From assembly GCA_963826535.1 (NCBI GenBank), contig CAWGXL010000010.1:234814-298813 (forward strand): DNA of 64,000 nucleotides. The letters run 5' to 3'. The translations under genes were made by a program, and so were the position numbers. This document shows positions 3 to 52,790 of the stretch, piece by piece (within the stretch, counting starts at the first letter, position 1; each line of letters begins with the position of its first letter). The DNA is from an uncultured bacterium. Lineage in GTDB: Bacteria; Patescibacteriota; Microgenomatia; Levybacterales; UBA12049. The notes under the pieces are model-generated. The model did no database searches. It was not told the origin of the DNA and saw only the letters and a list, made by a program, of their open reading frames with translations.

Positions 3-527
3 ACAGAAGGAATCATCATAAAAAGAAAAAACTATGGGGAAGCCGATAGGATTCTAACAGTCTTCACCCCATACCAAGGCAAAATTCAGGTAAAAGCATC
101 CGGAATACGAAGAATTCCAAGCAGACGCTCTGCACATGTGGAATTATTAAACTTTTCAATACTTAGTCTATATAAAGGAAGCGGTTTCCCCATTTTGACA
201 GAAGCAGAAACTTTAGAAAATTTTTCCGCGATCAAAGACAGTCTACAAAAAATTGGGCATGCTTACCATCTCTGCGAACTTATAGACGGTCTTTGTCCTG
301 AAAACCAAGAGAACACAAAAGCATTTTATCTACTCAAAAATATTCTAACAAACTTATCTAATTTCACGACCACTGATATCCGGGAGTTTGAAATCGAATT
401 ATTGTCAACACTTGGGTTTTGGAGCAAAGCGGACATGCTGACCGGCAATTTCAATACCCACCTCTTCATCGAAAACATCCTCGAACGCAAACTCAAAAGC
501 CACGACATATTCTCCAAAATGCAATAA
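3..527 (+). CDS. recO: DNA repair protein RecO, C-terminal part (5' end outside window)
   Basis: Frame 3 is open from the window edge and reads TEGIIIKRKNYGEADRILTVFTPYQGKIQVKASGIRRIPSRRS..., matching the conserved RecO N-terminal OB-fold region (YGEADRIL...GKI...KG.R.). The ORF track only shows it from the internal Met at 138. Confidence 0.8.
   Translation, partial: TEGIIIKRKNYGEADRILTVFTPYQGKIQVKASGIRRIPSRRSAHVELLNFSILSLYKGSGFPILTEAETLENFSAIKDSLQKIGHAYHLCELIDGLCPENQENTKAFYLLKNILTNLSNFTTTDIREFEIELLSTLGFWSKADMLTGNFNTHLFIENILERKLKSHDIFSKMQ
496..527 (+). repeat. 32-bp direct repeat copy 1 (AAAGCCACGACATATTCTCCAAAATGCAATAA), the last 32 nt of recO including its stop codon
   Basis: Seen directly. 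The same 32-mer recurs at 1029-1060 (28/32 identical) and 1731-1762 (31/32 identical). Confidence 0.9.
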
Positions 528-578
528 CAAATCAAAAATATTGTATTCTAATTTCTTATCTGTAATAATAAAGAAGAG

Positions 579-1013
579 ATGGATACAACTATAAATCAAG
601 AAGCAACGATTCCTGTCCAAACTCTTGGTGCCGTATCACCGGCAAATTTGAAAAAAAGTATTTTACCATGGTGCCTAATTATCATGGGTACATTAGCATT
701 AATTATCCCATTAGCAATATTGTGGATACTGTTGCCTCCAATTGTTACATTAATATCATCATTGGGCGGCGGCTCTATTGGTTTAGTAATTGCATTACCG
801 TTAGCAGGCATTCTTGGATTTTTTATCGGCCAAATATTTTATGGTATTAGTCTAGTCAGGAAGCAAATAAAAGCTGGAGGGATAGACGCAATTCAAATAA
901 AATGGGCAATAATCTTATTAGTAGGTGGAGTTATTGTAGCATTTCTCTTTATTCCGGCATTCTTAATTTCCATAATGAATCCATTATACGGAATAATTGA
1001 ATCAATTAAATAA
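579..1013 (+). CDS. Small polytopic membrane protein (about 4 TM helices), unknown function; cargo of cassette 1
   Basis: 144-aa hydrophobic ORF with Gly-rich TM segments. It lies between repeat copies 1 and 2. Confidence 0.55.
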   Translation: MDTTINQEATIPVQTLGAVSPANLKKSILPWCLIIMGTLALIIPLAILWILLPPIVTLISSLGGGSIGLVIALPLAGILGFFIGQIFYGISLVRKQIKAGGIDAIQIKWAIILLVGGVIVAFLFIPAFLISIMNPLYGIIESIK

Positions 1014-1028
1014 GAGTTTGTCTATTTA

Positions 1029-1060
1029 AAAGCTACGACATCTTCTCCAAGCTGCAATAA
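1029..1060 (+). repeat. 32-bp direct repeat copy 2 (AAAGCTACGACATCTTCTCCAAGCTGCAATAA)
   Basis: Seen directly, 16 nt downstream of the stop of the membrane-protein ORF. Confidence 0.9.
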
Positions 1061-1082
1061 ATTGCATATGCTATACTATTAC

Positions 1083-1379
1083 TTACATATGAAACATGCA
1101 AATCTGAAAAAAATAAAGAAAGAAATTTTACCAATTCTCAAAAAAGCTGGAGTAACTCGTGCTGCGATATTTGGCAGTGTTGCCAGAGGTGATGACACCA
1201 AAAAAAGCGATATTGATATGCTTGTAGATTTACCAAAAAAAATGAGCTTATTTGATGTTATCGATTTAGAATTTAAATTGGAAAAAGTCCTACATAGAAA
1301 AGTTGATCTCGTAGATTATGAAGCAATTAAACCTCGTATAAAACCATATATTATGCAGGATCAGGTACCCATTTTATGA
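1083..1379 (+). CDS. mntA: MntA-type nucleotidyltransferase (antitoxin of a HepT/MntA type VII TA pair)
   Basis: GSVARGDDTKKSDIDMLVD is the minimal nucleotidyltransferase motif (GS...DxD). The stop overlaps the downstream gene by 4 bp (ATGA). An alternative start is at 1062. Confidence 0.75.
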   Translation, partial: LHMKHANLKKIKKEILPILKKAGVTRAAIFGSVARGDDTKKSDIDMLVDLPKKMSLFDVIDLEFKLEKVLHRKVDLVDYEAIKPRIKPYIMQDQVPIL

Positions 1380-1720
1380 TCCGAGACCCCTTAATCTATC
1401 TGCATGACATACTCGAGAGTATTGAAAATATTGAGGAGGACACGCAGGGAATTTCGGAAGAAGAATTTCTCAAAAAGAGAATTATACAACAAGCAGTTAT
1501 AAGGAACTTAGAGATTATAGGCGAAGCCTCAAAGCAGTTATCAAGAGATTTTAAAAGCGCGAATCCCTCCATACCTTGGAATAAAATAACAGCAATGAGG
1601 AATAAAATCATTCATGAATACTTTGGACTGAAATTAAATGTAATTTGGCAGACAATAAATGAAGACTTACCACCTCTTAAAAAACAGATAAGAAAAATGC
1701 TGGACAATTCCTCGCAGTGA
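1376..1720 (+). CDS. hepT: HepT-type HEPN toxin (DUF86, nucleotidyltransferase substrate-binding family)
   Basis: The C-terminal HEPN Rx4HxY motif is present as RNKIIHEY. Size about 114 aa. Translationally coupled to mntA. Confidence 0.75.
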   Translation: MIRDPLIYLHDILESIENIEEDTQGISEEEFLKKRIIQQAVIRNLEIIGEASKQLSRDFKSANPSIPWNKITAMRNKIIHEYFGLKLNVIWQTINEDLPPLKKQIRKMLDNSSQ

Positions 1721-1730
1721 AATGATTATC

Positions 1731-1762
1731 AAAGCCACGACATATTCTCCAAACTGCAATAA
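1731..1762 (+). repeat. 32-bp direct repeat copy 3 (AAAGCCACGACATATTCTCCAAACTGCAATAA)
   Basis: Seen directly, 11 nt after the hepT stop. Confidence 0.9.
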
Positions 1763-1806
1763 TTGTTTTACAACCCGTAGTATGCTAAGATCTTAATCTA
1801 ATTACT

Positions 1807-2550
1807 ATGGGAACAGAAGCTTGGCAAAATCGACCCTCAGGAGAACACGGCTCATCATCAGAAAGAAGAATTGGTGTGAGTCACCCGGTTATTGAAGTCA
1901 TAAACAGCAATCTCCCCATTATTAATGAACGCATAAAAGGTTATGATTCTACCCTATTTAAAAGTGCACGATCTTATGACGACAGTTTACGCAAAGCACT
2001 AGAGCATCGTGACAAATATAACAAGAATAATTTTAGTTTCTTGGCTGATGCATTTGTAAACGTAGGACCTTTTCCTTTGGAGCCATTAGACATTGCTCTT
2101 ATTTGGTCTCGCGGAAAAGAAATGTTTACAAGCTTTAGTAAAAATGATTTTCCGCGTCTTGTGTCAACTGCCTATACAGTTCAAGATGCTCAAACTTCAG
2201 ATTGGAAAAACGTTCCTCGTCAGTTCTTTGAGAAAAAAACTATTCCAGAAGCTGTGCATAATGATGTAAGTGGCATAGCCAATGTCAGAGGGAAAGTCAG
2301 GTATGTATTGCAAAATGCTTTTGCACTATACGAATATGTATATGGACTACCGTATGACTGGGCATATCAATCTACCGGTGTTGCCGAAAGAATTAGAGAA
2401 GGTGATTCTAGCGTGAAAGCAGAAATTGACAAATTTATTGTAGAAAATGGAGAAAATGCAGTTACTGAAATTGCTGAAGACTTTTCAATTGGATTAACCT
2501 CTTTTAATGACCTATTAAGCGACTTACACTGTCCAAAATTACAAGAGTAG
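1807..2550 (+). CDS. Hypothetical protein (247 aa), no recognisable domain; possible third cargo gene
   Basis: Long ORF downstream of repeat copy 3. A short remnant of the repeat end (TGCAATAA) lies at 2608-2615 before the convergent gene. Confidence 0.45.
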   Translation: MGTEAWQNRPSGEHGSSSERRIGVSHPVIEVINSNLPIINERIKGYDSTLFKSARSYDDSLRKALEHRDKYNKNNFSFLADAFVNVGPFPLEPLDIALIWSRGKEMFTSFSKNDFPRLVSTAYTVQDAQTSDWKNVPRQFFEKKTIPEAVHNDVSGIANVRGKVRYVLQNAFALYEYVYGLPYDWAYQSTGVAERIREGDSSVKAEIDKFIVENGENAVTEIAEDFSIGLTSFNDLLSDLHCPKLQE

Positions 2551-2621
2551 ACAAAGTCAACCTGCTGCTAAAACTCACTAAATTTAAACCACTTAATTTT
2601 TGATCATTGCAATAAATCGGA

Positions 2622-3827
2622 TCATGAACCGGAGCTATTAGGGACAAGAATTTCCTCCATTAATGCTTTATAAGCAATTACAAGCTCACCTGGCGATCTA
2701 GCCGGCACATGCTCATTTGGTTCATGGATAGTTGTGCCCGGCAATCCAAGCTCTATAACATGAGTCCCTAAGGGTGAAAAAAATCCTCCATCCGATGTGC
2801 CGCCGCCTCCTGAAAGCCTAGGAGTTACGCCCAAAGAACTTTTTAAACTTCTTTGCGCAGCAGCAATTAATGGACTATCTTTCGGAGTTCCATATGGTTT
2901 ACCACTTAATCTCCATTCAGCGGCAAAAGCATTTTTAGGTGGTTTTTTACCCCTCGCTACTTTTTCATATACAATTTCCGCCATTTGTGTAAAATGACGT
3001 TGGATATCAGCATCCGTAGCTGATGGATTAGTTCTCCAGTTTCCCTGTACTATCGCCTTGGCAGCGGTTTGATTCTCAACCTCTGCGCTGGCTTGTATAT
3101 CCCATACACGGAAACTTGTTGGAGGAAATCTGGGGTCAGGATTTTCTTCCCAAGATCCATCAAGTCCTTCTACAAAAAGTCTTGCAGCAACTTCAGCAGC
3201 ATCAATACCATTGTTTTTTGCAATATGTCCGGTTATTCCATTAATTGTTAATCTAACGTGGTGCGATCCACGGCGACCTATATATATTTGATCTCCTACA
3301 ACCTTAATACTTGAAGCCTCTCCAACAACTGCATACTCCGGACGCAGACCATCCTTACGAAGTCTTTCTACTGCATATTTTGTACCATCTGTACGTTGAG
3401 CTTCCTCGTCACTGGTAATTAAAAACCCAATTGAACCAAAAAGGCTTTCTGGAGCATGATCTTGCAGTAATTGTTCCGTCGCGACCATCATACACGCAAT
3501 GGCACACTTCATATCTGCCACACCCCGGCCATACAATTTGCCGCGATGATGTATAAGCTCGAAAGGATCAAGTTGTTTCTTATTAACAACCCAACTCTCT
3601 CTTGGTCCTGGAGGAACAATATCTGTATGTCCTGCAAAAATCAACAAGGGCCCTTTCTCAAAATCTTTAAGCGCCCACGTGTTTGTAGTATCCTTACGGG
3701 AGAGATCTGTAATTGCAAACCCTAACGGAACTAAATGGTCACGAATAATAGTTTGGCATCCTTCATCACGAGGACTTAAGCTCTGGCGCTCAATTAAATT
3801 TGCAGCAATATCAATTTCTTTTGACAT
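2622..3827 (-). CDS. M20 family metallopeptidase (ArgE/DapE-like deacylase)
   Basis: M20 signatures HTDIVP, GVADMK and SDEE (metal ligands). 401 aa. Confidence 0.75.
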   Translation of the reverse strand: MSKEIDIAANLIERQSLSPRDEGCQTIIRDHLVPLGFAITDLSRKDTTNTWALKDFEKGPLLIFAGHTDIVPPGPRESWVVNKKQLDPFELIHHRGKLYGRGVADMKCAIACMMVATEQLLQDHAPESLFGSIGFLITSDEEAQRTDGTKYAVERLRKDGLRPEYAVVGEASSIKVVGDQIYIGRRGSHHVRLTINGITGHIAKNNGIDAAEVAARLFVEGLDGSWEENPDPRFPPTSFRVWDIQASAEVENQTAAKAIVQGNWRTNPSATDADIQRHFTQMAEIVYEKVARGKKPPKNAFAAEWRLSGKPYGTPKDSPLIAAAQRSLKSSLGVTPRLSGGGGTSDGGFFSPLGTHVIELGLPGTTIHEPNEHVPARSPGELVIAYKALMEEILVPNSSGS

Positions 3828-3939
3828 CTTATAACTTCGTTGGCAGGTGTATTCTACTAAAAATTTACCTGGAATGCTATGGAAGTATAAAGTTTTACTT
3901 TTATTTACGTTTTTTGCTTTTTATTGTTATAATAGTGCT

Positions 3940-5439
3940 ATGGCTGAGAATCGCACACCAGTTAATTCGGGTCTTATGGACAAGATTGTCGCACTCGCCA
4001 AACGTCGCGGTTTTATCTACCCAGGTTCCGAAATTTATGGAGGACTTGCCAATACCTATGACTATGGCCCCATGGGTACCGAACTTCTCCGCAATATTAA
4101 AAATCTTTGGTGGAAATATTTTGTTCAGGACCGGAGCGACATCGTAGGCCTGGATGCCGGTCTGATTTCCCACCACAAAATATGGGAAGCCTCCGGCCAT
4201 GTCGCCGGTTTCGCCGACGCTATGATTGACTGTAAAAACTGCAAAGCCCGCATGCGCGCGGATCACTTATTAGAGGCACAATTAGGTATTGAAACTGGTA
4301 TTCCCCGGCATAAATTAAAAAAAACTCTCCAATCTGAAAATGATAATACATTTAATAATGAAGAAAGAAAAATTTTATTAACAGTTGTAGACTCGGGTAA
4401 AGTAGAAGGTTTATATATTGAACTATTAAATAAATTAGTTACTTTCCTAAATCCGGAGTGTCCTAACTGTGGGAAGCGCGACTGGACTGCTATTCGGAAG
4501 TTTAATTTATTATTCCCTGTCCAATTGGGCATTATCGAAGGCGAAGGGGGAATGGGCTACTTACGGGGGGAAACAGCCCAGGGAATCTTTATAAATTTCC
4601 GTAATGTAGTTGATTCCACGCGGGTACGACTACCATTTGGTATCGCCCAGCTTGGCAAAAGCTTCCGTAATGAAATAACACCCGGAAATTCCATCTTTCG
4701 CACAATTGAATTTGAACTCGCAGAAATAGAATATTTTTTCGATCCTGAGATTATTTCACCAGACGAGTTGTTTGAAAAATGGAAAAACGCGCTTTGGGAT
4801 TTTGTTACCAAAGAGCTCAAAGTTTTAGCAACAAATCTCCGTTGGCGGGCACACAATGACGATGAGCGATCATTTTATAGTGAACGCACCGAAGATATGG
4901 AATACAAATTCCCATTTGGATTTAAAGAATTATTGGGACTGGCATATCGAACCAATTATGATCTATCCCAGCATATGAAAATTTCCAAAAAAGACCTGAC
5001 AATTACCGATCCGCATACTGGAAAGAAGATCCTTCCGCACGTTATTGAACCGGCACTGGGAATTAATCGATTACTATTAATGATACTAATTGACTCCTAT
5101 ACTGAGGAAGAGAAGCGGGTAGTTTTAAAACTTAACCCGCAACTCGCACCATATAAAGTTGCCGTTTTTCCTCTGCTCGCCAACAAAGAAAATTTAGTCG
5201 AGAAAGCAAAAGAAATATATGATGAACTAAAGCAACATTTTATGGTTGTCTTTGATGACCGTGGCAATATTGGCAAACGATACCTTGCCCAAGACGAAAT
5301 CGGCACACCCTGGTGCGTCACAGTTGATTTTGATTCCCTCGAAGACGATACAGTCACAATTCGTGACCGTGATACAACCAAACAAGAAAGAGTACCAATA
5401 AAAGAGCTATCTGCCTACTTCCACCAAAAACTCACTTAA
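3940..5439 (+). CDS. glyQS: Glycine--tRNA ligase (class II, dimeric GlyQS type)
   Basis: ...MDKIVALAKRRGFIYPGSEIYGGLANTYDYGPMG... is the typical GlyRS N-terminus, and class II motifs are present. Start chosen at ATG 3940, which has a TATAAT-like box at 3928-3933; alternative starts are 3847 or 3976. Confidence 0.85.
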   Translation: MAENRTPVNSGLMDKIVALAKRRGFIYPGSEIYGGLANTYDYGPMGTELLRNIKNLWWKYFVQDRSDIVGLDAGLISHHKIWEASGHVAGFADAMIDCKNCKARMRADHLLEAQLGIETGIPRHKLKKTLQSENDNTFNNEERKILLTVVDSGKVEGLYIELLNKLVTFLNPECPNCGKRDWTAIRKFNLLFPVQLGIIEGEGGMGYLRGETAQGIFINFRNVVDSTRVRLPFGIAQLGKSFRNEITPGNSIFRTIEFELAEIEYFFDPEIISPDELFEKWKNALWDFVTKELKVLATNLRWRAHNDDERSFYSERTEDMEYKFPFGFKELLGLAYRTNYDLSQHMKISKKDLTITDPHTGKKILPHVIEPALGINRLLLMILIDSYTEEEKRVVLKLNPQLAPYKVAVFPLLANKENLVEKAKEIYDELKQHFMVVFDDRGNIGKRYLAQDEIGTPWCVTVDFDSLEDDTVTIRDRDTTKQERVPIKELSAYFHQKLT

Positions 5440-5476: not shown

Positions 5477-5872
5477 ATGTCTATGTTCACAAAAATTCAG
5501 TTAGATCAACTCCAAAAACTCTTTGATTCTAACAATAAATCTAACAATAAAAAAATTAGAAAAGATATACACGAAGATATCAAAACTTCAGAAAACAGGC
5601 TAAGACTGGAAATTCAAGTATCCAATCAACAGCTAGAAGATAAGCTAAATAAAAAAATTGACACTTCCAATCAACAACTTGAAAGTAAATTGCGAAAAGA
5701 AATCCAAGGCTCCAATCGACAACTAAAGGAAGAATTAAGTCTAAAAATTGATTCTTCACAAGAAGATACAATAGAAATCTTATCAGCTTTGATACACACA
5801 GGAATTAACATGCAGGAAAGACGCATTAAGCGCATAGAAGATAACCTCGATCTCCCCCCATTAAAAGATTAA
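5477..5872 (+). CDS. Coiled-coil protein with three tandem 15-aa (45-nt) repeats (SNQQLExKL...), unknown function
   Basis: Repeats at about 5625, 5669 and 5711, visible in both DNA and protein. Low-complexity Lys/Gln/Glu-rich sequence. Confidence 0.5.
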   Translation: MSMFTKIQLDQLQKLFDSNNKSNNKKIRKDIHEDIKTSENRLRLEIQVSNQQLEDKLNKKIDTSNQQLESKLRKEIQGSNRQLKEELSLKIDSSQEDTIEILSALIHTGINMQERRIKRIEDNLDLPPLKD

Positions 5873-6998: not shown

Positions 6999-7872
6999 TT
7001 ATCATGTTAGTGTACTTTTACAGGAAGTAATCGAATATCTAAACGTAACAAAGGGAGAGAAATATATTGACGCTACTCTTGGCGGCGGTGGACACGCAAT
7101 TGAAATAGTTAAGCGTGGCGGAATTGTTCTAGGTTTTGACGCCGATCAAGAAGCAATTGATTTTGTTTTAGAAAGTCACAAATCACTAATCACAGGTCAT
7201 AAATTAACGGTTGTTAGGGGGAATTTTAAGGACATTAAAAAAATAGCAAGCGAATACGGATTTAACAATGTAGCAGGTGTAATATTTGATCTTGGGGTTT
7301 CTAGCCATCAGTTTGATAGCGGCTGGAGAGGATTCAGTTTCCGAAAAGAAGGACCGCTTGATATGCGGATGGATAGTGATCTCAAGGTGCAAGCCAAAGA
7401 CCTTGTTAATATACTAACGAAAGGAGAACTCTATGAGCTATTTTCTAAATTGGGTGAAGAACGATTTTCTCGATCCATTGCTAACAGTATTATTAGGGCC
7501 CGTCGAATAAGACCGTTCACGTCAACAACGCAATTATCGGATATTATCAGCGGAGCGGTACCATTCGACAAATTAAGATTAGATGCAATTGCGCGTATTT
7601 ATCAAGCACTACGGATCGCAATTAATGATGAACTTAATAATTTGAGAGAAGCCCTGCCGCAAGCATTTGAGCTGCTTGCCAAATCAGGAAAAATCGCAGT
7701 TATATCTTTTCATTCGCTTGAAGATAGAATAGTAAAAAATCAATTCCTACAATGGCAGGATGAAGGAAAAGGTTCTATTCTCACCAAAAAGCCAATCAGG
7801 CCGAGCGAAGAAGAAATAGAAAAAAACAAAAGAAGTAGAAGCGCTAAGTTACGGGTTATTCAAAAAAATTAA
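6991..7872 (+). CDS. rsmH: 16S rRNA (cytosine1402-N4)-methyltransferase RsmH (MraW)
   Basis: N-terminal YHVSVLLQEVIEYL...DATLGGGGHA, SAM-MTase motifs, 8-bp overlap with mraZ. Confidence 0.9.
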   Translation: MNNYHVSVLLQEVIEYLNVTKGEKYIDATLGGGGHAIEIVKRGGIVLGFDADQEAIDFVLESHKSLITGHKLTVVRGNFKDIKKIASEYGFNNVAGVIFDLGVSSHQFDSGWRGFSFRKEGPLDMRMDSDLKVQAKDLVNILTKGELYELFSKLGEERFSRSIANSIIRARRIRPFTSTTQLSDIISGAVPFDKLRLDAIARIYQALRIAINDELNNLREALPQAFELLAKSGKIAVISFHSLEDRIVKNQFLQWQDEGKGSILTKKPIRPSEEEIEKNKRSRSAKLRVIQKN

Positions 7873-7889
7873 AAAGTCAGTTTTTGCAG

Positions 7890-7957
7890 CCCGCCGGCAA
7901 AGCGCTCATCGAGCCGTACTCGAATAGAATTGAAAAGGCGGAAGTAAGCTTAGGCGG
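7890..7957. repeat. Family-2 palindromic intergenic repeat, copy A (CCCGCCGGCAAAGCGCTCATCGAGCCGTACTC...GAAGTAAGCTTAGGCGGG)
   Basis: Imperfect long hairpin. Two near-identical copies lie at 38883-38952 and 52694-52783. Confidence 0.8.
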
Positions 7958-7966
7958 GGAAAGAAT

Positions 7967-15394: not shown

Positions 15395-15421
15395 GTAAAC
15401 TGACACCTAACTGACGGAGAA

Positions 15422-15562
15422 TTGTCATTCCGAGCGACCAAAGGGAGTCGAGGCGACACCAAGAAGTGGATAGTACCCTTGTGGTGAATCTCATACCACA
15501 TATCTACTTGGTGGCTTGAGATCCCTCCACTACGCTATCGCTTCGGTCGGGATGACAGGGTG
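15422..15562. repeat. Family-1 MITE-like element, long copy (TTGTCATTCCGAGCGA...GAGATCCCTCCACTACGCTATCGCTTCGGTCGGGATGACAGGG)
   Basis: About 140 bp. The 3' 40 nt are nearly identical to the copy at 46417-46457. A TATAAT box follows directly at 15563-15568, upstream of the murB-like gene. Confidence 0.8.
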
Positions 15563-15583
15563 TATAATATGAATCATTAATCT

Positions 15584-38811: not shown

Positions 38812-38882
38812 AAATAACTCACCTCCTTTTAGAAGCTCTTAACGATCCCGATTCAATCGGGAGAGTTCTAGTGCTTCTTAAA

Positions 38883-38952
38883 CCCGCCGCTAAAGCGCTC
38901 TTCAAGCCGTGTACAAATAGTACTGAAAAGGTTTGAAGTAAGCTTAGGCGGG
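38883..38952. repeat. Family-2 palindromic repeat, copy B
   Basis: CCCGCCGCTAAAGCGCTCTTCAAGCCGTGTACAAATAGTACTGAAAAGGTTTGAAGTAAGCTTAGGCGGG. Sits between atpB and atpE. Confidence 0.8.
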
Positions 38953-38955
38953 TTA

Positions 38956-40367: not shown

Positions 40368-40742
40368 TTATTTCTTTTTTATTTCCTCCCCTTCATTTGT
40401 TATTGAAATGAGATGTCCTTTTTCCTCACTTGGTTTAAGCTTTTTTAAAACTTTGCAGATTTTTTTATCAATCTGGGCATTCGTCAATGTTGTCGAAAGA
40501 GCAATCACACTCGGCTTATTATCTTCAATTAATGGTTTAAAATCTTTTGTATTAAAAACTACAACTATATACTCGTTTTTCCCCGCAAGATGGTAAATAG
40601 CCTTGTCGTTCAATCCGCCCTTTTTCAAATCGTGATTAATGTGTCTTACAGTATGAAGATTATTTAGTTTTGCAAAACTTTCTCTTCGCGGTAAACCTTC
40701 ATCAAGCAGCAGCTTGCGTCTTATATGTCTTTTTGAAATCAT
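40368..40742 (-). CDS. DUF5615 family protein (PIN-like, toxin-like partner of DUF433)
   Basis: ...KLLLDEGLP... matches the DUF5615 N-terminal signature (LLDENLP). Downstream of and overlapping the DUF433 gene. Confidence 0.55.
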   Translation of the reverse strand: MISKRHIRRKLLLDEGLPRRESFAKLNNLHTVRHINHDLKKGGLNDKAIYHLAGKNEYIVVVFNTKDFKPLIEDNKPSVIALSTTLTNAQIDKKICKVLKKLKPSEEKGHLISITNEGEEIKKK

Positions 40743-40950
40743 CAAGTCCGATTTCCATTAATAATGAAATTACCGACTGGATTTTTTTAATGCTAACTTG
40801 TGGATACTCCTCTTTCAAAGACTCAGTTGTATATCCTTGTTTTACAAGTTCCTTTATTCGTTCTATCGGAATTCTTGTCCCCGCAATTACAGGCGTCCCA
40901 CCAAGGATCTCAGGGTCAATAATGATGGTTTTTGATAATTTTGTAATCAT
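40702..40950 (-). CDS. DUF433 family protein (antitoxin-like)
   Basis: IIIDPEILGGTPVIAGTRIPIERIKELVKQGYTTESLKEEYPQVSIKKIQSVISL matches the DUF433 pattern. Confidence 0.65.
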   Translation of the reverse strand: MITKLSKTIIIDPEILGGTPVIAGTRIPIERIKELVKQGYTTESLKEEYPQVSIKKIQSVISLLMEIGLDDFKKTYKTQAAA

Positions 40951-46341: not shown

Positions 46342-46354
46342 AGTTATTTTCTAT

Positions 46355-46457
46355 TTGTCATTCCGAGCGACTGGAAGTAGTCGAGGAATCTCCTACCAAT
46401 GAGCTAATAAGTGGTATGAGATCCCTCCACTTCGCTATCGCTTCGGTCGGGATGACA
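46355..46457. repeat. Family-1 MITE-like element (TTGTCATTCCGAGCGACTGG...GAGATCCCTCCACTTCGCTATCGCTTCGGTCGGGATGACA)
   Basis: Shares both termini and a 40-nt 3' block with the 15422-15562 copy. Sits between gatB and gatA. Confidence 0.8.
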
Positions 46458-46461
46458 ACTT

Positions 46462-47868
46462 TTATATTTTTGGTTTCTTCAAATACAATGGATTTTCCGA
46501 TTCATACTGATAAGCTAAATTAAGTACAGTTTCCTCTCCATACTGCCGCCCAATAATCTGCATACCAATGGGCATTTTTTCCTTTGAAAACCCAACAGGC
46601 ATATTAATGCCTGTTAGACCGGCGATGGACGAAGGCTCAACAAGGACATCCATAATCTCCCCAAACATTGGATTATCTTTCGTCGCCCCAATCTTAAGTG
46701 CCGTAACTGGAGTTGTGGGACTAATAATAGCATCTACTTTCTCATATGCTTTCATAAAATCCTGAATAATCATTGTCCGCACCTTTTGCGCCTTTTTATA
46801 ATATGCATCATAATATCCACTAGAAAGTGCGTATGTTCCAAGCATTATGCGCCGCTTTGCTTCTTCGCCAAAGAAAGAACGGTCTTTACCATATCGGATA
46901 CCGTCATACCGTGCTAAATTTGATGAAACCTCAGACCTTTGCAAAATCGTATAAACATCAATTGCATATTTCGGGTCAAACAACTTAACCTTTTTTATTA
47001 TATGACCATGCTTTTGCAGGACTTTAATTGCGTCTTCAACAGAAGCTACGATTTCAGGATCAACACCCGTGAAATAATCATCTGAAATACCGATTGTCAT
47101 TTTTCTTGATCCCTTTAAATTCCTGGAATAGTTTTTTACTACTTCCTGAGATGTAGTTGCGTCATTTGGATCATTTCCTGCTATTACTTTAAGTATAAGT
47201 GCTGCATCCTCGACAGTCTTAGTAATTGGTCCCGGACTATCCAGAGACGAACCCATGGCTATCACTCCATATCTGCTAACTCTTCCATAAGTTGGTTTAA
47301 ACCCAACAATTCCACACCATGCGCTAGGCTGTCTAATTGAGCCTGCAGTTTCTGATCCAACAGCTGCTACGCACTCATCAGCACACACACTTGCCGCAGC
47401 CCCGCCCGATGAGCCACCTGGTAATTTATTAATATCCCATGGATTTCTGGTTGTTCCATAGTCAGATGATTCAGTTGAAGAACCATGTGCCCAAGCATCC
47501 ATATTTGTTTTACCTAGCAAAACAATTCCTGCATTTACCAATCGCTCTACAACGGTCGCGTTGTAGGGAGGTATAAACTTATCTAGCACATTGCTCGAAG
47601 CTGTTGTACGAATTCCGGTAGTTAAAAAATTGTCCTTAATAGAAAAGGGGATTCCAAGAAGTGGAAAGTCGGCCCCGGTTGCTAATAAATCATCTGCCTT
47701 TTGCGCGTCTTCCAGAGCACGTTCTTCTGTTACAGTCACAAACGCGTGAAGTTTGGGTTCAATTTTATTAATTCTTTTTAAATATTCTTTAGTAAGTTCT
47801 GAAGAAGAAAATTTCTTTTCTTTAAATTTCTTTTTTACGTCTTTTATAGTTAGTGAATGGAGATCCAT
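46462..47868 (-). CDS. gatA: Glu-tRNA(Gln)/Asp-tRNA(Asn) amidotransferase subunit A
   Basis: Amidase-signature family (GGSSGG...). 468 aa. Confidence 0.9.
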   Translation of the reverse strand: MDLHSLTIKDVKKKFKEKKFSSSELTKEYLKRINKIEPKLHAFVTVTEERALEDAQKADDLLATGADFPLLGIPFSIKDNFLTTGIRTTASSNVLDKFIPPYNATVVERLVNAGIVLLGKTNMDAWAHGSSTESSDYGTTRNPWDINKLPGGSSGGAAASVCADECVAAVGSETAGSIRQPSAWCGIVGFKPTYGRVSRYGVIAMGSSLDSPGPITKTVEDAALILKVIAGNDPNDATTSQEVVKNYSRNLKGSRKMTIGISDDYFTGVDPEIVASVEDAIKVLQKHGHIIKKVKLFDPKYAIDVYTILQRSEVSSNLARYDGIRYGKDRSFFGEEAKRRIMLGTYALSSGYYDAYYKKAQKVRTMIIQDFMKAYEKVDAIISPTTPVTALKIGATKDNPMFGEIMDVLVEPSSIAGLTGINMPVGFSKEKMPIGMQIIGRQYGEETVLNLAYQYESENPLYLKKPKI

Positions 47869-52654: not shown

Positions 52655-52690
52655 GAGACACTTAGCGAATGTAATGAGTTTAGTGTCTCT
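52655..52690. other. Hairpin: 9-bp perfect inverted repeat AGAGACACT / AGTGTCTCT with an 18-nt loop
   Basis: Seen directly. Between the polX stop and the lemA start, with no U-tract. Confidence 0.5.
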
Positions 52691-52693
52691 TAA

Positions 52694-52783
52694 GTCCGCC
52701 GCTCAAGCGCTCTTCAAGCCGTGTACTCCTGTCCGCCTTTGGCGGGAATAGTACTGAAAGGGCTTGAAGTAAGCTTAGGCGGA
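52694..52783. repeat. Family-2 palindromic repeat, copy C (with an extra internal GTCCGCCTTTGGCGGGA hairpin)
   Basis: GTCCGCCGCTCAAGCGCTCTTCAAGCCGTGTACTC...GTACTGAAAGGGCTTGAAGTAAGCTTAGGCGGAC. Confidence 0.8.
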
Positions 52784-52790
52784 CCTAATA

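What the first reader, a model, noticed from the sequence alone, without database searches (positions are those of the whole stretch)
496..2615. Cassette array at the recO 3' end: cargo genes each followed by a 32-bp copy of the recO terminus
The last 32 nt of recO (AAAGCCACGACATATTCTCCAAAATGCAATAA, 496-527) recur as non-coding direct repeats at 1029-1060 (28/32) and 1731-1762 (31/32). Each copy lies 11-16 nt after the stop of an inserted unit: a small 4-TM membrane protein, then a HepT/MntA toxin-antitoxin pair. A third unknown gene (1807-2550) is followed by a possible degenerate remnant (TGCAATAA at 2608-2615). This is the footprint of repeated site-specific insertion that regenerates the target 3' end at each event, like an integron or a 3'-end integrative hotspot. 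No integrase or recombinase is nearby. The repeat has no dyad symmetry, so it is not an attC-like or REP hairpin. The membrane protein and the 247-aa protein are candidate new defence or addiction cargo.
Basis: seen in the sequence. Interest (0 to 1): 0.85.

Follow-up and report, generated by a model that had tools for sequence, protein, structure and literature searches.

The report
Displaced recO gene ends flank inserted cassettes
Two small gene cassettes (an unknown membrane protein and a HepT/MntA toxin-antitoxin pair) were added one after the other at the very end of the DNA-repair gene recO in a Levybacteria (candidate phyla radiation) genome, each leaving an old, once-coding copy of the recO end behind it; this looks like gene gain by recombination at a chromosomal hotspot rather than a new kind of mobile element.

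Summary
The last 32-33 nt of recO occur three times (495-527, 1028-1060, 1731-1762) and nowhere else in the 64 kb. The proposed fourth "remnant" (2608-2615) is not significant, so three copies mean two insertions, and the 247-aa gene need not be a cassette.

Read in the recO frame, the downstream copies still encode valid RecO C-termini (KSYDIFSKLQ*, SHDIFSKLQ*). I found two independent cases of the same architecture in distant Levybacteria. L197 has recO, mntA-hepT, then a 39-41-nt copy whose three differences are all synonymous. L088 has a 66-nt copy.

Pooled pN/pS between working and displaced ends is 0.14 (p = 6e-6 against random change; p = 0.0025 against in-situ duplication plus decay). 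The copies are therefore former or foreign coding recO ends, not target-site duplications.

recO-glyS is a conserved gene pair whose gap varies greatly across about 110 loci. It holds restriction-modification, methyltransferase, IS200 and transporter genes. No integrase was found there or in the 64-kb window.

The best reading is additive recombination at a hotspot, anchored in recO and then spread through the short repeat. A trans-acting recombinase, integron-like system is not excluded.

The parts
3..527 (+). recO (the window starts at codon 6; full protein 179 aa, P0001); conserved left flank of the hotspot
   Evidence: Pfam RecO_N 1.3e-15 and RecO_C 4.7e-10. There are 1390 homologues, mostly Levybacteria/Patescibacteria, and the family ends in ERKLKSxxIF[AS]KLQ*.
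495..527 (+). T1: the working recO end (KSHDIFSKMQ*), first copy of the repeat
   Evidence: It scores 28.2 bits on a position-specific scoring matrix (PSSM) built from RecO C-termini.
528..1027 (+). Cassette 1: 51-nt leader plus a 144-aa ORF (579-1013), a 3-4 TM membrane protein with no homologue
   Evidence: ORF. Only itself was found among 5.8 billion proteins. No Pfam, PADLOC or PHROG hit. Hydropathy.
1028..1060 (+). T2: displaced recO end that reads KSYDIFSKLQ* in the recO frame; 4 differences from T1 (2 synonymous, H>Y, M>L)
   Evidence: Only 0.2% of random 4-substitution variants of T1 keep so RecO-like a peptide.
1061..1730 (+). Cassette 2: TGCTATACT -10-like box (1070-1077), mntA (1089-1379) and hepT (1376-1720, start overlaps the mntA stop)
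   Evidence: Pfam NTP_transf_2/Polbeta and HepT-like 3.7e-30. The GSx10DxD and Rx4H motifs can be read in the translations. PADLOC PDC-S09 matches MntA. The -10 box is the only non-coding feature shared with homologous TA loci elsewhere.
1731..1762 (+). T3: displaced recO end that reads SHDIFSKLQ*; 1 difference from T1 (M>L, the family consensus). Probably the original end of this lineage
1807..2550 (+). 247-aa gene of unknown function. It lies in the variable gap but is not bounded by a repeat
2608..2615 (+). Claimed degenerate remnant (TGCAATAA): not supported
   Evidence: no better than shuffles
2622..3827 (-). M20-family peptidase, convergent with the 247-aa gene. It is also part of the variable gap and is absent from the recO neighbourhood of the 84 other loci tested (L001-L084)
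   Evidence: Pfam Peptidase_M20 and M20_dimer; no tblastn hit in these loci
3847..5439 (+). glyS (glycyl-tRNA synthetase), the conserved right flank. The true start is probably the ATG near 3976 (MDKIVALAKRRGF), behind a TTTACG-18-TATAAT promoter-like site at 3904-3933
   Evidence: glyS follows recO in 76 of 80 Levybacteria species representatives; promoter scan

Best explanation
The recO-glyS junction is a gene-gain hotspot in Levybacteria. In this genome two compact cassettes, each with its own -10-like box and one transcription unit, were added one after the other at the 3' end of recO.

Each event brought in a recO 3' end that now terminates the gene. It pushed the previous end, about 33 nt including the stop codon, downstream of the new cargo. 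On this reading T3 is the lineage's original end, T2 came with the HepT/MntA cassette, and T1 came with the membrane-protein cassette.

Most likely mechanism (inferred, not shown). DNA taken up from related Levybacteria, in which cargo already sat next to recO, recombined with a long homologous anchor inside recO. The other side joined illegitimately a few tens of nucleotides before the recipient's stop codon, as in homology-facilitated illegitimate recombination. Once one cargo is flanked by two recO ends, the short repeat can itself serve as the second homology arm. Cassettes can then be swapped or stacked with the same boundary, and lost again by recombination between repeats. No dedicated recombinase is needed.

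The HepT/MntA pair would stabilise the insert by addiction. This step follows from established knowledge of type II/VII toxin-antitoxin systems and was not tested here.
For: Shown:
(1) There are three copies and no more, each directly after a compact unit.
(2) The displaced copies still encode RecO-like C-termini. Random variants rarely do so (0.2% and 1.5%).
(3) Two independent instances exist. L197 has recO, mntA-hepT (only 49% and 41% aa identity to the window pair) and a 39-41-nt copy with 3 of 3 synonymous differences, including TAG>TAA. L088 has recO, a reverse 244-aa gene and a 66-nt copy at 77% identity reading IVGNILENKFKSKSISAKLQ*.
(4) Pooled over the four pairs there are 14 synonymous and 8 nonsynonymous differences, pN/pS 0.14, p = 6e-6 against random placement and p = 0.0025 against in-situ duplication with neutral decay of one copy.
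(5) recO is followed by glyS in 76 of 80 species. The gap ranges from overlap to 4.5 kb, and 23 species have 0.57 kb or more of extra DNA.
(6) The four closest RecO relatives (71-79% identity) each have different DNA after recO.
(7) Occupied gaps hold a DNA methylase with HNH, class I methyltransferases, IS200-type transposases, DndB, glycosyltransferases and EamA transporters, but no integrase. There is none in the 64-kb window either.
(8) The displaced piece differs in length between lineages (33, 39-41, 66 nt) but is the same to within 1 nt for both window copies.
(9) The same HepT/MntA family sits in the recO-glyS gap of L207 without any displaced end, and in unrelated contexts elsewhere. 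Those loci share no conserved cassette ends.
Against: No donor genome or empty-site strain of the same species is available, so no recombination junction has been seen directly. The nearest RecO in 5.8 billion proteins is 79% identical.

Two independent illegitimate joins landing within 1 nt of each other in the window would be unlikely. The model needs the extra assumption that the second cassette entered through the repeat. A 33-nt arm with 3-12% mismatch is a poor substrate for RecA.

The synonymous-site statistics rest on 22 differences, 14 of them from L088.

The region upstream of recO and the rest of the 494-kb contig could not be retrieved, so a recombinase elsewhere in the genome cannot be excluded.
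Confidence: 0.5

Rival explanations
1. An integron-like or satellite cassette system. Cargo-only minicircles of 0.5-0.7 kb carry a mimic of the recO end as their attachment site. A recombinase encoded elsewhere in the genome inserts them at the recO end. The crossover lies at the 5' edge of the identity block, so the element supplies the new gene end and the old one is displaced. This is how islands that target tRNA 3' ends behave.
For: The units are compact, point the same way and have no debris. Both window repeats share a boundary to within 1 nt. The identity block ends exactly at the stop codon. HepT/MntA cargo occurs twice at the same site in distant lineages. Coding-like divergence of the repeat is also expected if the element's site must encode a working RecO end.
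Against: No integrase was found in the 64-kb window or in 17 other occupied recO-glyS gaps. There is no recO relative on viral contigs. The recO-end-like viral matches are chance hits, the best one lying antisense inside a phage ORF. The repeat has no dyad symmetry or fold. Repeat length differs between lineages (33, 39-41, 66 nt). Homologous TA cassettes elsewhere carry no such site. L207 has the TA pair in the same gap without a displaced end.
Confidence: 0.3
2. In-situ duplication, such as a transposase or casposase-type target-site duplication, replication slippage or tandem duplication of the recO end, followed by neutral drift of the non-coding copies.
For: The repeats are direct and flank the inserted DNA. 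T3 differs from T1 at a single base.
Against: Differences are strongly biased to synonymous sites (pN/pS 0.14), and the in-situ model is rejected at p = 0.0025. All three differences in L197 are synonymous, including the stop codon. The cassettes have no terminal inverted repeats and there is no transposase nearby. Duplications of 33-66 nt are far longer than known target-site duplications (general knowledge).
Confidence: 0.07
3. The 32-mer is a reused functional motif, such as a promoter, operator, terminator or RNA element placed in front of each gene, and not an insertion scar.
For: Each copy lies 29-52 nt upstream of the next start codon. TGCAATAA(T) weakly resembles an extended -10 element (read).
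Against: The sequence is the coding end of a conserved protein, and its variants follow the RecO codon pattern. There is no fold, no Rfam hit and no promoter or terminator call at the copies. It occurs nowhere else in 64 kb. Synonymous sites of the recO end are not unusually conserved across 106 loci (0.46 against 0.42 overall). Each cargo has its own -10 box downstream of the copy.
Confidence: 0.05
4. An assembly artefact: strain variants concatenated through a k-mer-sized repeat.
For: The repeat is close to a typical k-mer length and the source is a metagenome-assembled genome.
Against: The three copies are not identical (28/32 and 31/32) and their flanks are unique. Two unrelated assemblies show the same architecture with other sequences (L197, L088).
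Confidence: 0.03

Closest known systems
Minimal mobile elements, i.e. chromosomal hotspots between conserved flanking genes (Saunders & Snyder 2002; as described in PMC3787668)
   Same: Different whole-gene cassettes sit between the same two conserved genes (recO and glyS) in related genomes. No mobility genes are present. Content differs even among the closest relatives. Spread is attributed to transformation and homologous recombination in the flanks (definition; data).
   Different: Minimal mobile elements are not described as leaving duplicated gene ends. Here, in 3 of about 110 loci, the cassette is followed by a displaced copy of the left-flank gene's end. That implies one-sided (additive) exchange rather than clean double-crossover exchange.
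Integrase-mediated islands, ICEs and IMEs at the 3' ends of tRNA or protein genes, including tandem accretion and integrase-less remnants (CIMEs; cargo-only tycheposon remnants). This comparison rests on general knowledge.
   Same: Direct repeats consist of the 3' end of the target gene. The gene end is restored by incoming DNA. Successive insertions build an array with one repeat per unit.
   Different: No integrase is present in or near any instance. The units are only 0.5-0.7 kb. Repeat length varies between lineages. recO is not a reported target: no paper combined recO with 'integration site', 'direct repeats' and 'genomic island', and the phrase search 'end of recO' plus 'integrase' returned only irrelevant papers, because word-start matching also caught 'end of recombination' and similar phrases.
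Integron cassette arrays (general knowledge)
   Same: The arrays are made of short cassettes with one or two genes, all in one orientation, each followed by a recombination-site-like repeat. Toxin-antitoxin cassettes are common cargo.
   Different: There is no intI. The repeat lacks the imperfect palindrome of attC. The cassettes carry their own promoter-like boxes. The repeat is the coding end of a housekeeping gene.
HepT/MntA (HEPN/MNT) toxin-antitoxin systems
   Same: Cassette 2 is a canonical pair. The genes overlap, the Pfam domains match, and the GSx10DxD and Rx4H motifs are present.
   Different: Nothing is unusual in the proteins. What is unusual is the position, directly after recO and before a displaced recO end, seen twice in distant lineages.

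Membership tests
Integron | An intI tyrosine recombinase gene next to the array | tested here: not met
   No Phage_integrase or any recombinase domain in ORFs of 120 aa or more across the 64-kb window. The region upstream of recO is not visible.
Integron | attC sites: imperfect inverted repeats (R''-L''...L'-R') that fold as hairpins | tested here: not met
   The repeats with their flanks fold no better than shuffles (z -2.1, +0.3, -0.2) and share no common structure. No inverted repeat covers them.
Integron | Short co-oriented cassettes, each ending in the recombination site | tested here: met
   The units span 533 and 702 nt from repeat start to repeat start, lie on the same strand as recO, and the repeat starts 10-15 nt after each stop codon.
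Integrase-mediated integrative element at a gene 3' end (island, ICE, IME, CIME) | Flanking direct repeats made of the target gene's 3' end, with the gene kept intact | tested here: met
Integrase-mediated integrative element at a gene 3' end (island, ICE, IME, CIME) | An integrase encoded in the element, or for CIMEs a related integrase-bearing element using the same site | tested here: not met
   None in the window, none among 20 genes in 17 other occupied recO-glyS gaps, and no recO-adjacent provirus in IMG/VR.
Integrase-mediated integrative element at a gene 3' end (island, ICE, IME, CIME) | Excision to a circular form with a single att site | not testable with these tools
   This needs the raw reads of the source sample.
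Minimal mobile element / homologous-recombination hotspot | A variable region between the same two conserved flanking genes in related genomes | tested here: met
   recO followed by glyS in 76 of 80 species; gap from overlap to 4.5 kb
Minimal mobile element / homologous-recombination hotspot | No mobility genes of its own | tested here: met
   No integrase was found. IS200-type transposases occur in only one of 17 gaps.
Minimal mobile element / homologous-recombination hotspot | The same cassette found between the same flanks in distantly related genomes (evidence of transfer by flank homology) | tested here: inconclusive
   HepT/MntA lies in the recO-glyS gap in the window, L197 and L207, but the pairs are only 41-66% identical. 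No near-identical cassette was found.
Transposon or casposon target-site duplication | Duplicates identical at birth, then neutral divergence; terminal inverted repeats; a transposase | tested here: not met
   pN/pS 0.14, in-situ model rejected at p = 0.0025. No TIRs and no transposase.
HepT/MntA toxin-antitoxin (cassette 2 only) | Adjacent MNT nucleotidyltransferase (GSx10DxD) and HEPN RNase (Rx4-6H) genes | tested here: met
   Pfam hits. The translations contain GSVARGDDTKKSDID and RNKIIH. The genes overlap at 1376-1379.

The most novel reading that the evidence does not exclude
Levybacteria (Patescibacteria) have an integron-like cassette system that uses the coding end of recO as its recombination site. 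Cargo-only minicircles (toxin-antitoxin pairs, small membrane proteins) carry a functional mimic of the recO end. They are captured, stacked and released at recO, either by a recombinase encoded elsewhere or by the host's own recombination machinery acting on the roughly 33-nt repeat.
Probability: 0.2. Interest if true: 0.8.

Novelty: new variant of a known kind. Interest (0 to 1): 0.42.

Why it matters
Bacteria of the candidate phyla radiation have small, streamlined genomes and few recognisable mobile elements. How they gain accessory and defence genes is poorly documented.

This locus gives a concrete, datable record of gene gain. Each event is marked by a displaced recO end that once coded for protein, so the order of events can be read and the relatedness of the donors can be estimated. 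The record also points to recombination between relatives, not a dedicated element, as the route.

The pN/pS test on displaced gene ends is a general way to separate target-site duplication from an incoming replacement end at any insertion site of this kind.

If the integron-like reading were right instead, it would be a new class of cassette system. The evidence here does not favour that.

Tried and rejected
- Source genome: looking up the source contig through its RecO or HepT protein found nothing on record. The region upstream of recO and the rest of the genome stayed out of reach.
- Exact and degenerate 32-mer: no match in the metagenome or viral collections.
In viral contigs the 6 hits are chance, the best one antisense inside a phage ORF.
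- recO relatives on viral contigs: none.
- Second copies of the recO end in the 80 species representatives: none, either by DNA matching at up to 7 mismatches in 32, by local alignment or by peptide PSSM.
- Embedded DNA element in the recO end: synonymous-site conservation there is not elevated.
- Promoter or terminator role: no calls at the repeats. GC content of the cassettes is only slightly below the neighbouring genes.
- Function of the 144-aa protein: no homologues at all.
- Context of the closest HepT homologue (76% identity, P0123): DNA not retrievable.
- Literature: the phrase search 'end of recO' plus 'integrase' returned 11 papers, all irrelevant because word-start matching also caught 'end of recombination' and the like. 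No paper combined recO with 'integration site', 'direct repeats' and 'genomic island'. A search with Patescibacteria among four terms (three required) listed only papers that do not mention Patescibacteria.
- Considered and dropped: a Xer/dif-like site (no dyad arms), diversity-generating retroelement template and variable repeats (no reverse transcriptase; the repeat is too short), CRISPR-like repeat duplication (no cas genes; 0.5-0.7-kb 'spacers' that are genes).
Full report
**1. What is there**

The window opens inside recO. Pfam finds RecO_N and RecO_C, the full protein is 179 aa (P0001), and its relatives are almost all Levybacteria or other Patescibacteria.

The last 32 nt of recO (496-527) recur at 1029-1060 (28/32) and 1731-1762 (31/32). 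No other match with up to three mismatches exists on either strand of the 64 kb, and none is expected by chance. Identity starts within 1-2 nt of AAAGC and stops exactly at the TAA.

Two compact units lie between the copies:
- 528-1027 holds a 144-aa ORF with 3-4 hydrophobic segments.
- 1061-1730 holds an overlapping MntA/HepT pair with the expected domains and motifs.

After the third copy come a 247-aa gene, a convergent M20 peptidase and then glyS.

The proposed fourth 'remnant' is only the 8-mer TGCAATAA. Aligning the recO end to that spacer does no better than shuffles. Three copies need two insertions, so the 247-aa gene is not shown to be a cassette.

**2. The copies are old coding ends, not fresh duplications**

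Across 120 homologues the RecO family ends in ERKLKSxxIF[AS]KLQ*. Read in the recO frame, copy 2 encodes KSYDIFSKLQ* and copy 3 SHDIFSKLQ*. Both are as good a RecO end as the working one, KSHDIFSKMQ* (26.5-28.5 bits on a position-specific scoring matrix, PSSM, of RecO C-termini).

The four differences of copy 2 are two synonymous changes, H>Y and M>L. Y and L are both common at those positions in the family. Only 0.2% of random four-substitution variants of the working end score as well. Starting from copy 3, the figure is 1.5% of three-substitution variants.

**3. The architecture recurs**

A degenerate recO-end pattern pulled 120 metagenome loci, 26 of them recO loci. Two carry a second copy of their own recO end.

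- L197 (Ga0335069_10385198; RecO 51% identical to the window's). recO stops at 770. A bona fide mntA-hepT pair follows at 802-1448, only 49% and 41% identical in protein to the window pair. Six nucleotides later comes a 39-41-nt copy of the recO end. Its three differences are all synonymous: CTA>CTG, CAA>CAG, TAG>TAA.
- L088 (Ga0134124_10000283; RecO 62%). recO stops at 3376. A reverse-strand 244-aa gene follows, then a 66-nt copy at 77% identity that reads IVGNILENKFKSKSISAKLQ*.

A peptide-level scan of all roughly 110 recO loci in hand found extra copies only in the window, L197 and L088.

**4. Synonymous bias**

Pooling the four pairs of working and displaced ends gives 14 synonymous and 8 nonsynonymous differences over 31 synonymous and 131 nonsynonymous sites, so pN/pS is 0.14. 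The excess of synonymous change has p = 6e-6 against random placement. It has p = 0.0025 against a model in which an in-situ duplicate decays neutrally while the working copy stays constrained.

Most of the divergence therefore arose while both sequences were working recO ends in separate lineages. Each insertion brought a foreign recO end, or an element-borne mimic held to the same coding constraint, and displaced the previous one. This rules out ordinary target-site duplication and slippage. The numbers are small, and L088 contributes most of them.

**5. The site is a hotspot**

In 76 of 80 Levybacteria species representatives recO is followed by glyS and then the same dcw-cluster genes as in the window. 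The recO-glyS distance runs from overlap to 4.5 kb, and 23 species have 0.57 kb or more of extra DNA.

None of the 84 related loci examined at that stage (L001-L084) contains any of the window's five gap genes next to recO.

The four closest RecO relatives (71-79% identity) each have different DNA right after recO and no displaced end.

Twenty genes from 17 occupied gaps include an N6/N4 DNA methylase with an HNH nuclease, several class I methyltransferases, two IS200-type transposase genes, a DndB-like protein, glycosyltransferases, EamA transporters and unknowns. None is an integrase.

The 64-kb window itself holds housekeeping genes (dcw cluster, ATP synthase, dnaE, gatAB, ftsK and others) and no recombinase.

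**6. The cargo has no ends of its own**

Close homologues of the window's HepT (62-76% identity) lie in unrelated neighbourhoods (L082, L083, L205/L206, L208). In L207 the pair lies in a recO-DUF218-mntA-hepT-ORF-glyS gap with no displaced end. The only non-coding feature these loci share is a TGnTATACT -10-like box before mntA. The toxin-antitoxin pair is therefore not a self-contained element with conserved termini.

The repeat has no fold, no Rfam match and no promoter or terminator call. Synonymous sites at the recO end are not unusually conserved family-wide.

**7. Mechanism**

Two models fit the coding-like divergence.

(a) Recombination without a dedicated enzyme. Incoming DNA from a relative pairs within recO. 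The far side joins illegitimately just upstream of the recipient's stop codon. The repeat so created then serves as a short second arm for further swaps and stacking.

(b) A recombinase encoded elsewhere that inserts cargo-only circles carrying a recO-end mimic.

Model (a) explains four things: why the displaced piece differs in length between lineages (33, 39-41, 66 nt) yet matches within the window; why no integrase turns up in any occupied gap; why most insertions at this site have no repeat; and why the site behaves like the 'minimal mobile elements' of naturally transformable bacteria.

Model (b) explains the near-identical boundaries in the window more directly, as well as the very clean, compact units. 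It cannot be excluded, because the rest of the genome was not retrievable.

I put (a) at about 0.5 and (b) at about 0.3.

**8. The cargo proteins**

The 144-aa protein has no homologue in 5.8 billion proteins. The 247-aa protein belongs to a family of about 100 clusters with no Pfam, PDB, PADLOC or PHROG relative. It has a confident all-helical model with no specific structural neighbour. Calling either one a defence or addiction gene is unsupported. HepT/MntA is a canonical toxin-antitoxin pair.

**9. Verdict**

The evidence points to hotspot recombination that leaves displaced, once-coding gene ends. It does not point to a new site-specific cassette system. This is a new variant of a known kind and of moderate interest.

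Noticed in passing
window 15420-15568 and 46353-46468: Two copies (81-84% identical) of an intergenic element of about 115-150 nt, downstream of a Mur ligase gene and between gatB and gatA. Each folds into one long hairpin closed by GUCAUUCCGAGCGA / UCGCUUCGGUCGGGAUGAC (z -2.7 and -5.8). There is no Rfam match at gathering threshold. It could be a MITE-like repeat or a structured RNA.
   Followed up: partly
window 38865-38955, 52677-52786 and, more weakly, 7872-7960: A second family of intergenic repeats (89-94% identical between the first two). They fold into a GC-closed hairpin (z -4.5 and -4.4; the third copy is degenerate, z +0.2). They lie after the ATP synthase a-subunit gene, after lemA and after mraW. 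No Rfam match.
   Followed up: partly
recO-glyS gaps of L035, L053, L068, L066/L071/L072/L088: The same hotspot in other Levybacteria carries a DNA methylase with an HNH nuclease (L035), a DndB-like gene (L053), two IS200-type Y1 transposase genes (L068) and, repeatedly, a reverse-oriented methyltransferase-like gene of about 240 aa (clear class I methyltransferases in L066, L071 and L072; only a weak, below-threshold match in L088).
   Followed up: partly
window 3847-3976: The longest glyS ORF starts at GTG 3847 with a hydrophobic extension not seen in relatives. The conserved protein begins near ATG 3976 (MDKIVALAKRRGF), and a TTTACG-18-TATAAT site with an upstream TG lies at 3904-3933. The real start is probably 3976, with a divergent promoter region shared with the M20 gene.
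   Followed up: no
window 5609-5757 (inside ORF 5477-5872): Three 45-nt in-frame repeats (61-73% identical) inside a 131-aa ORF with no Pfam hit. It is probably a coiled-coil repeat protein.
   Followed up: no
window 3-527 and RecO homologues: RecO in this clade is short (about 180 aa) and matches only positions 4-64 of the 157-position RecO_C profile. A sister group has proteins of about 219 aa with an internal insertion.
   Followed up: no
L082 601-1620: A homologous HepT locus carries two tandem MntA paralogues (53% and 82% identical to the window MntA) ahead of one HepT.
   Followed up: no
window 40368-40745: A DUF5615 protein lies next to a 189-aa ORF with no Pfam hit, between dnaE and the ATP synthase operon. 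It may be a second toxin-antitoxin-like insertion.
   Followed up: no
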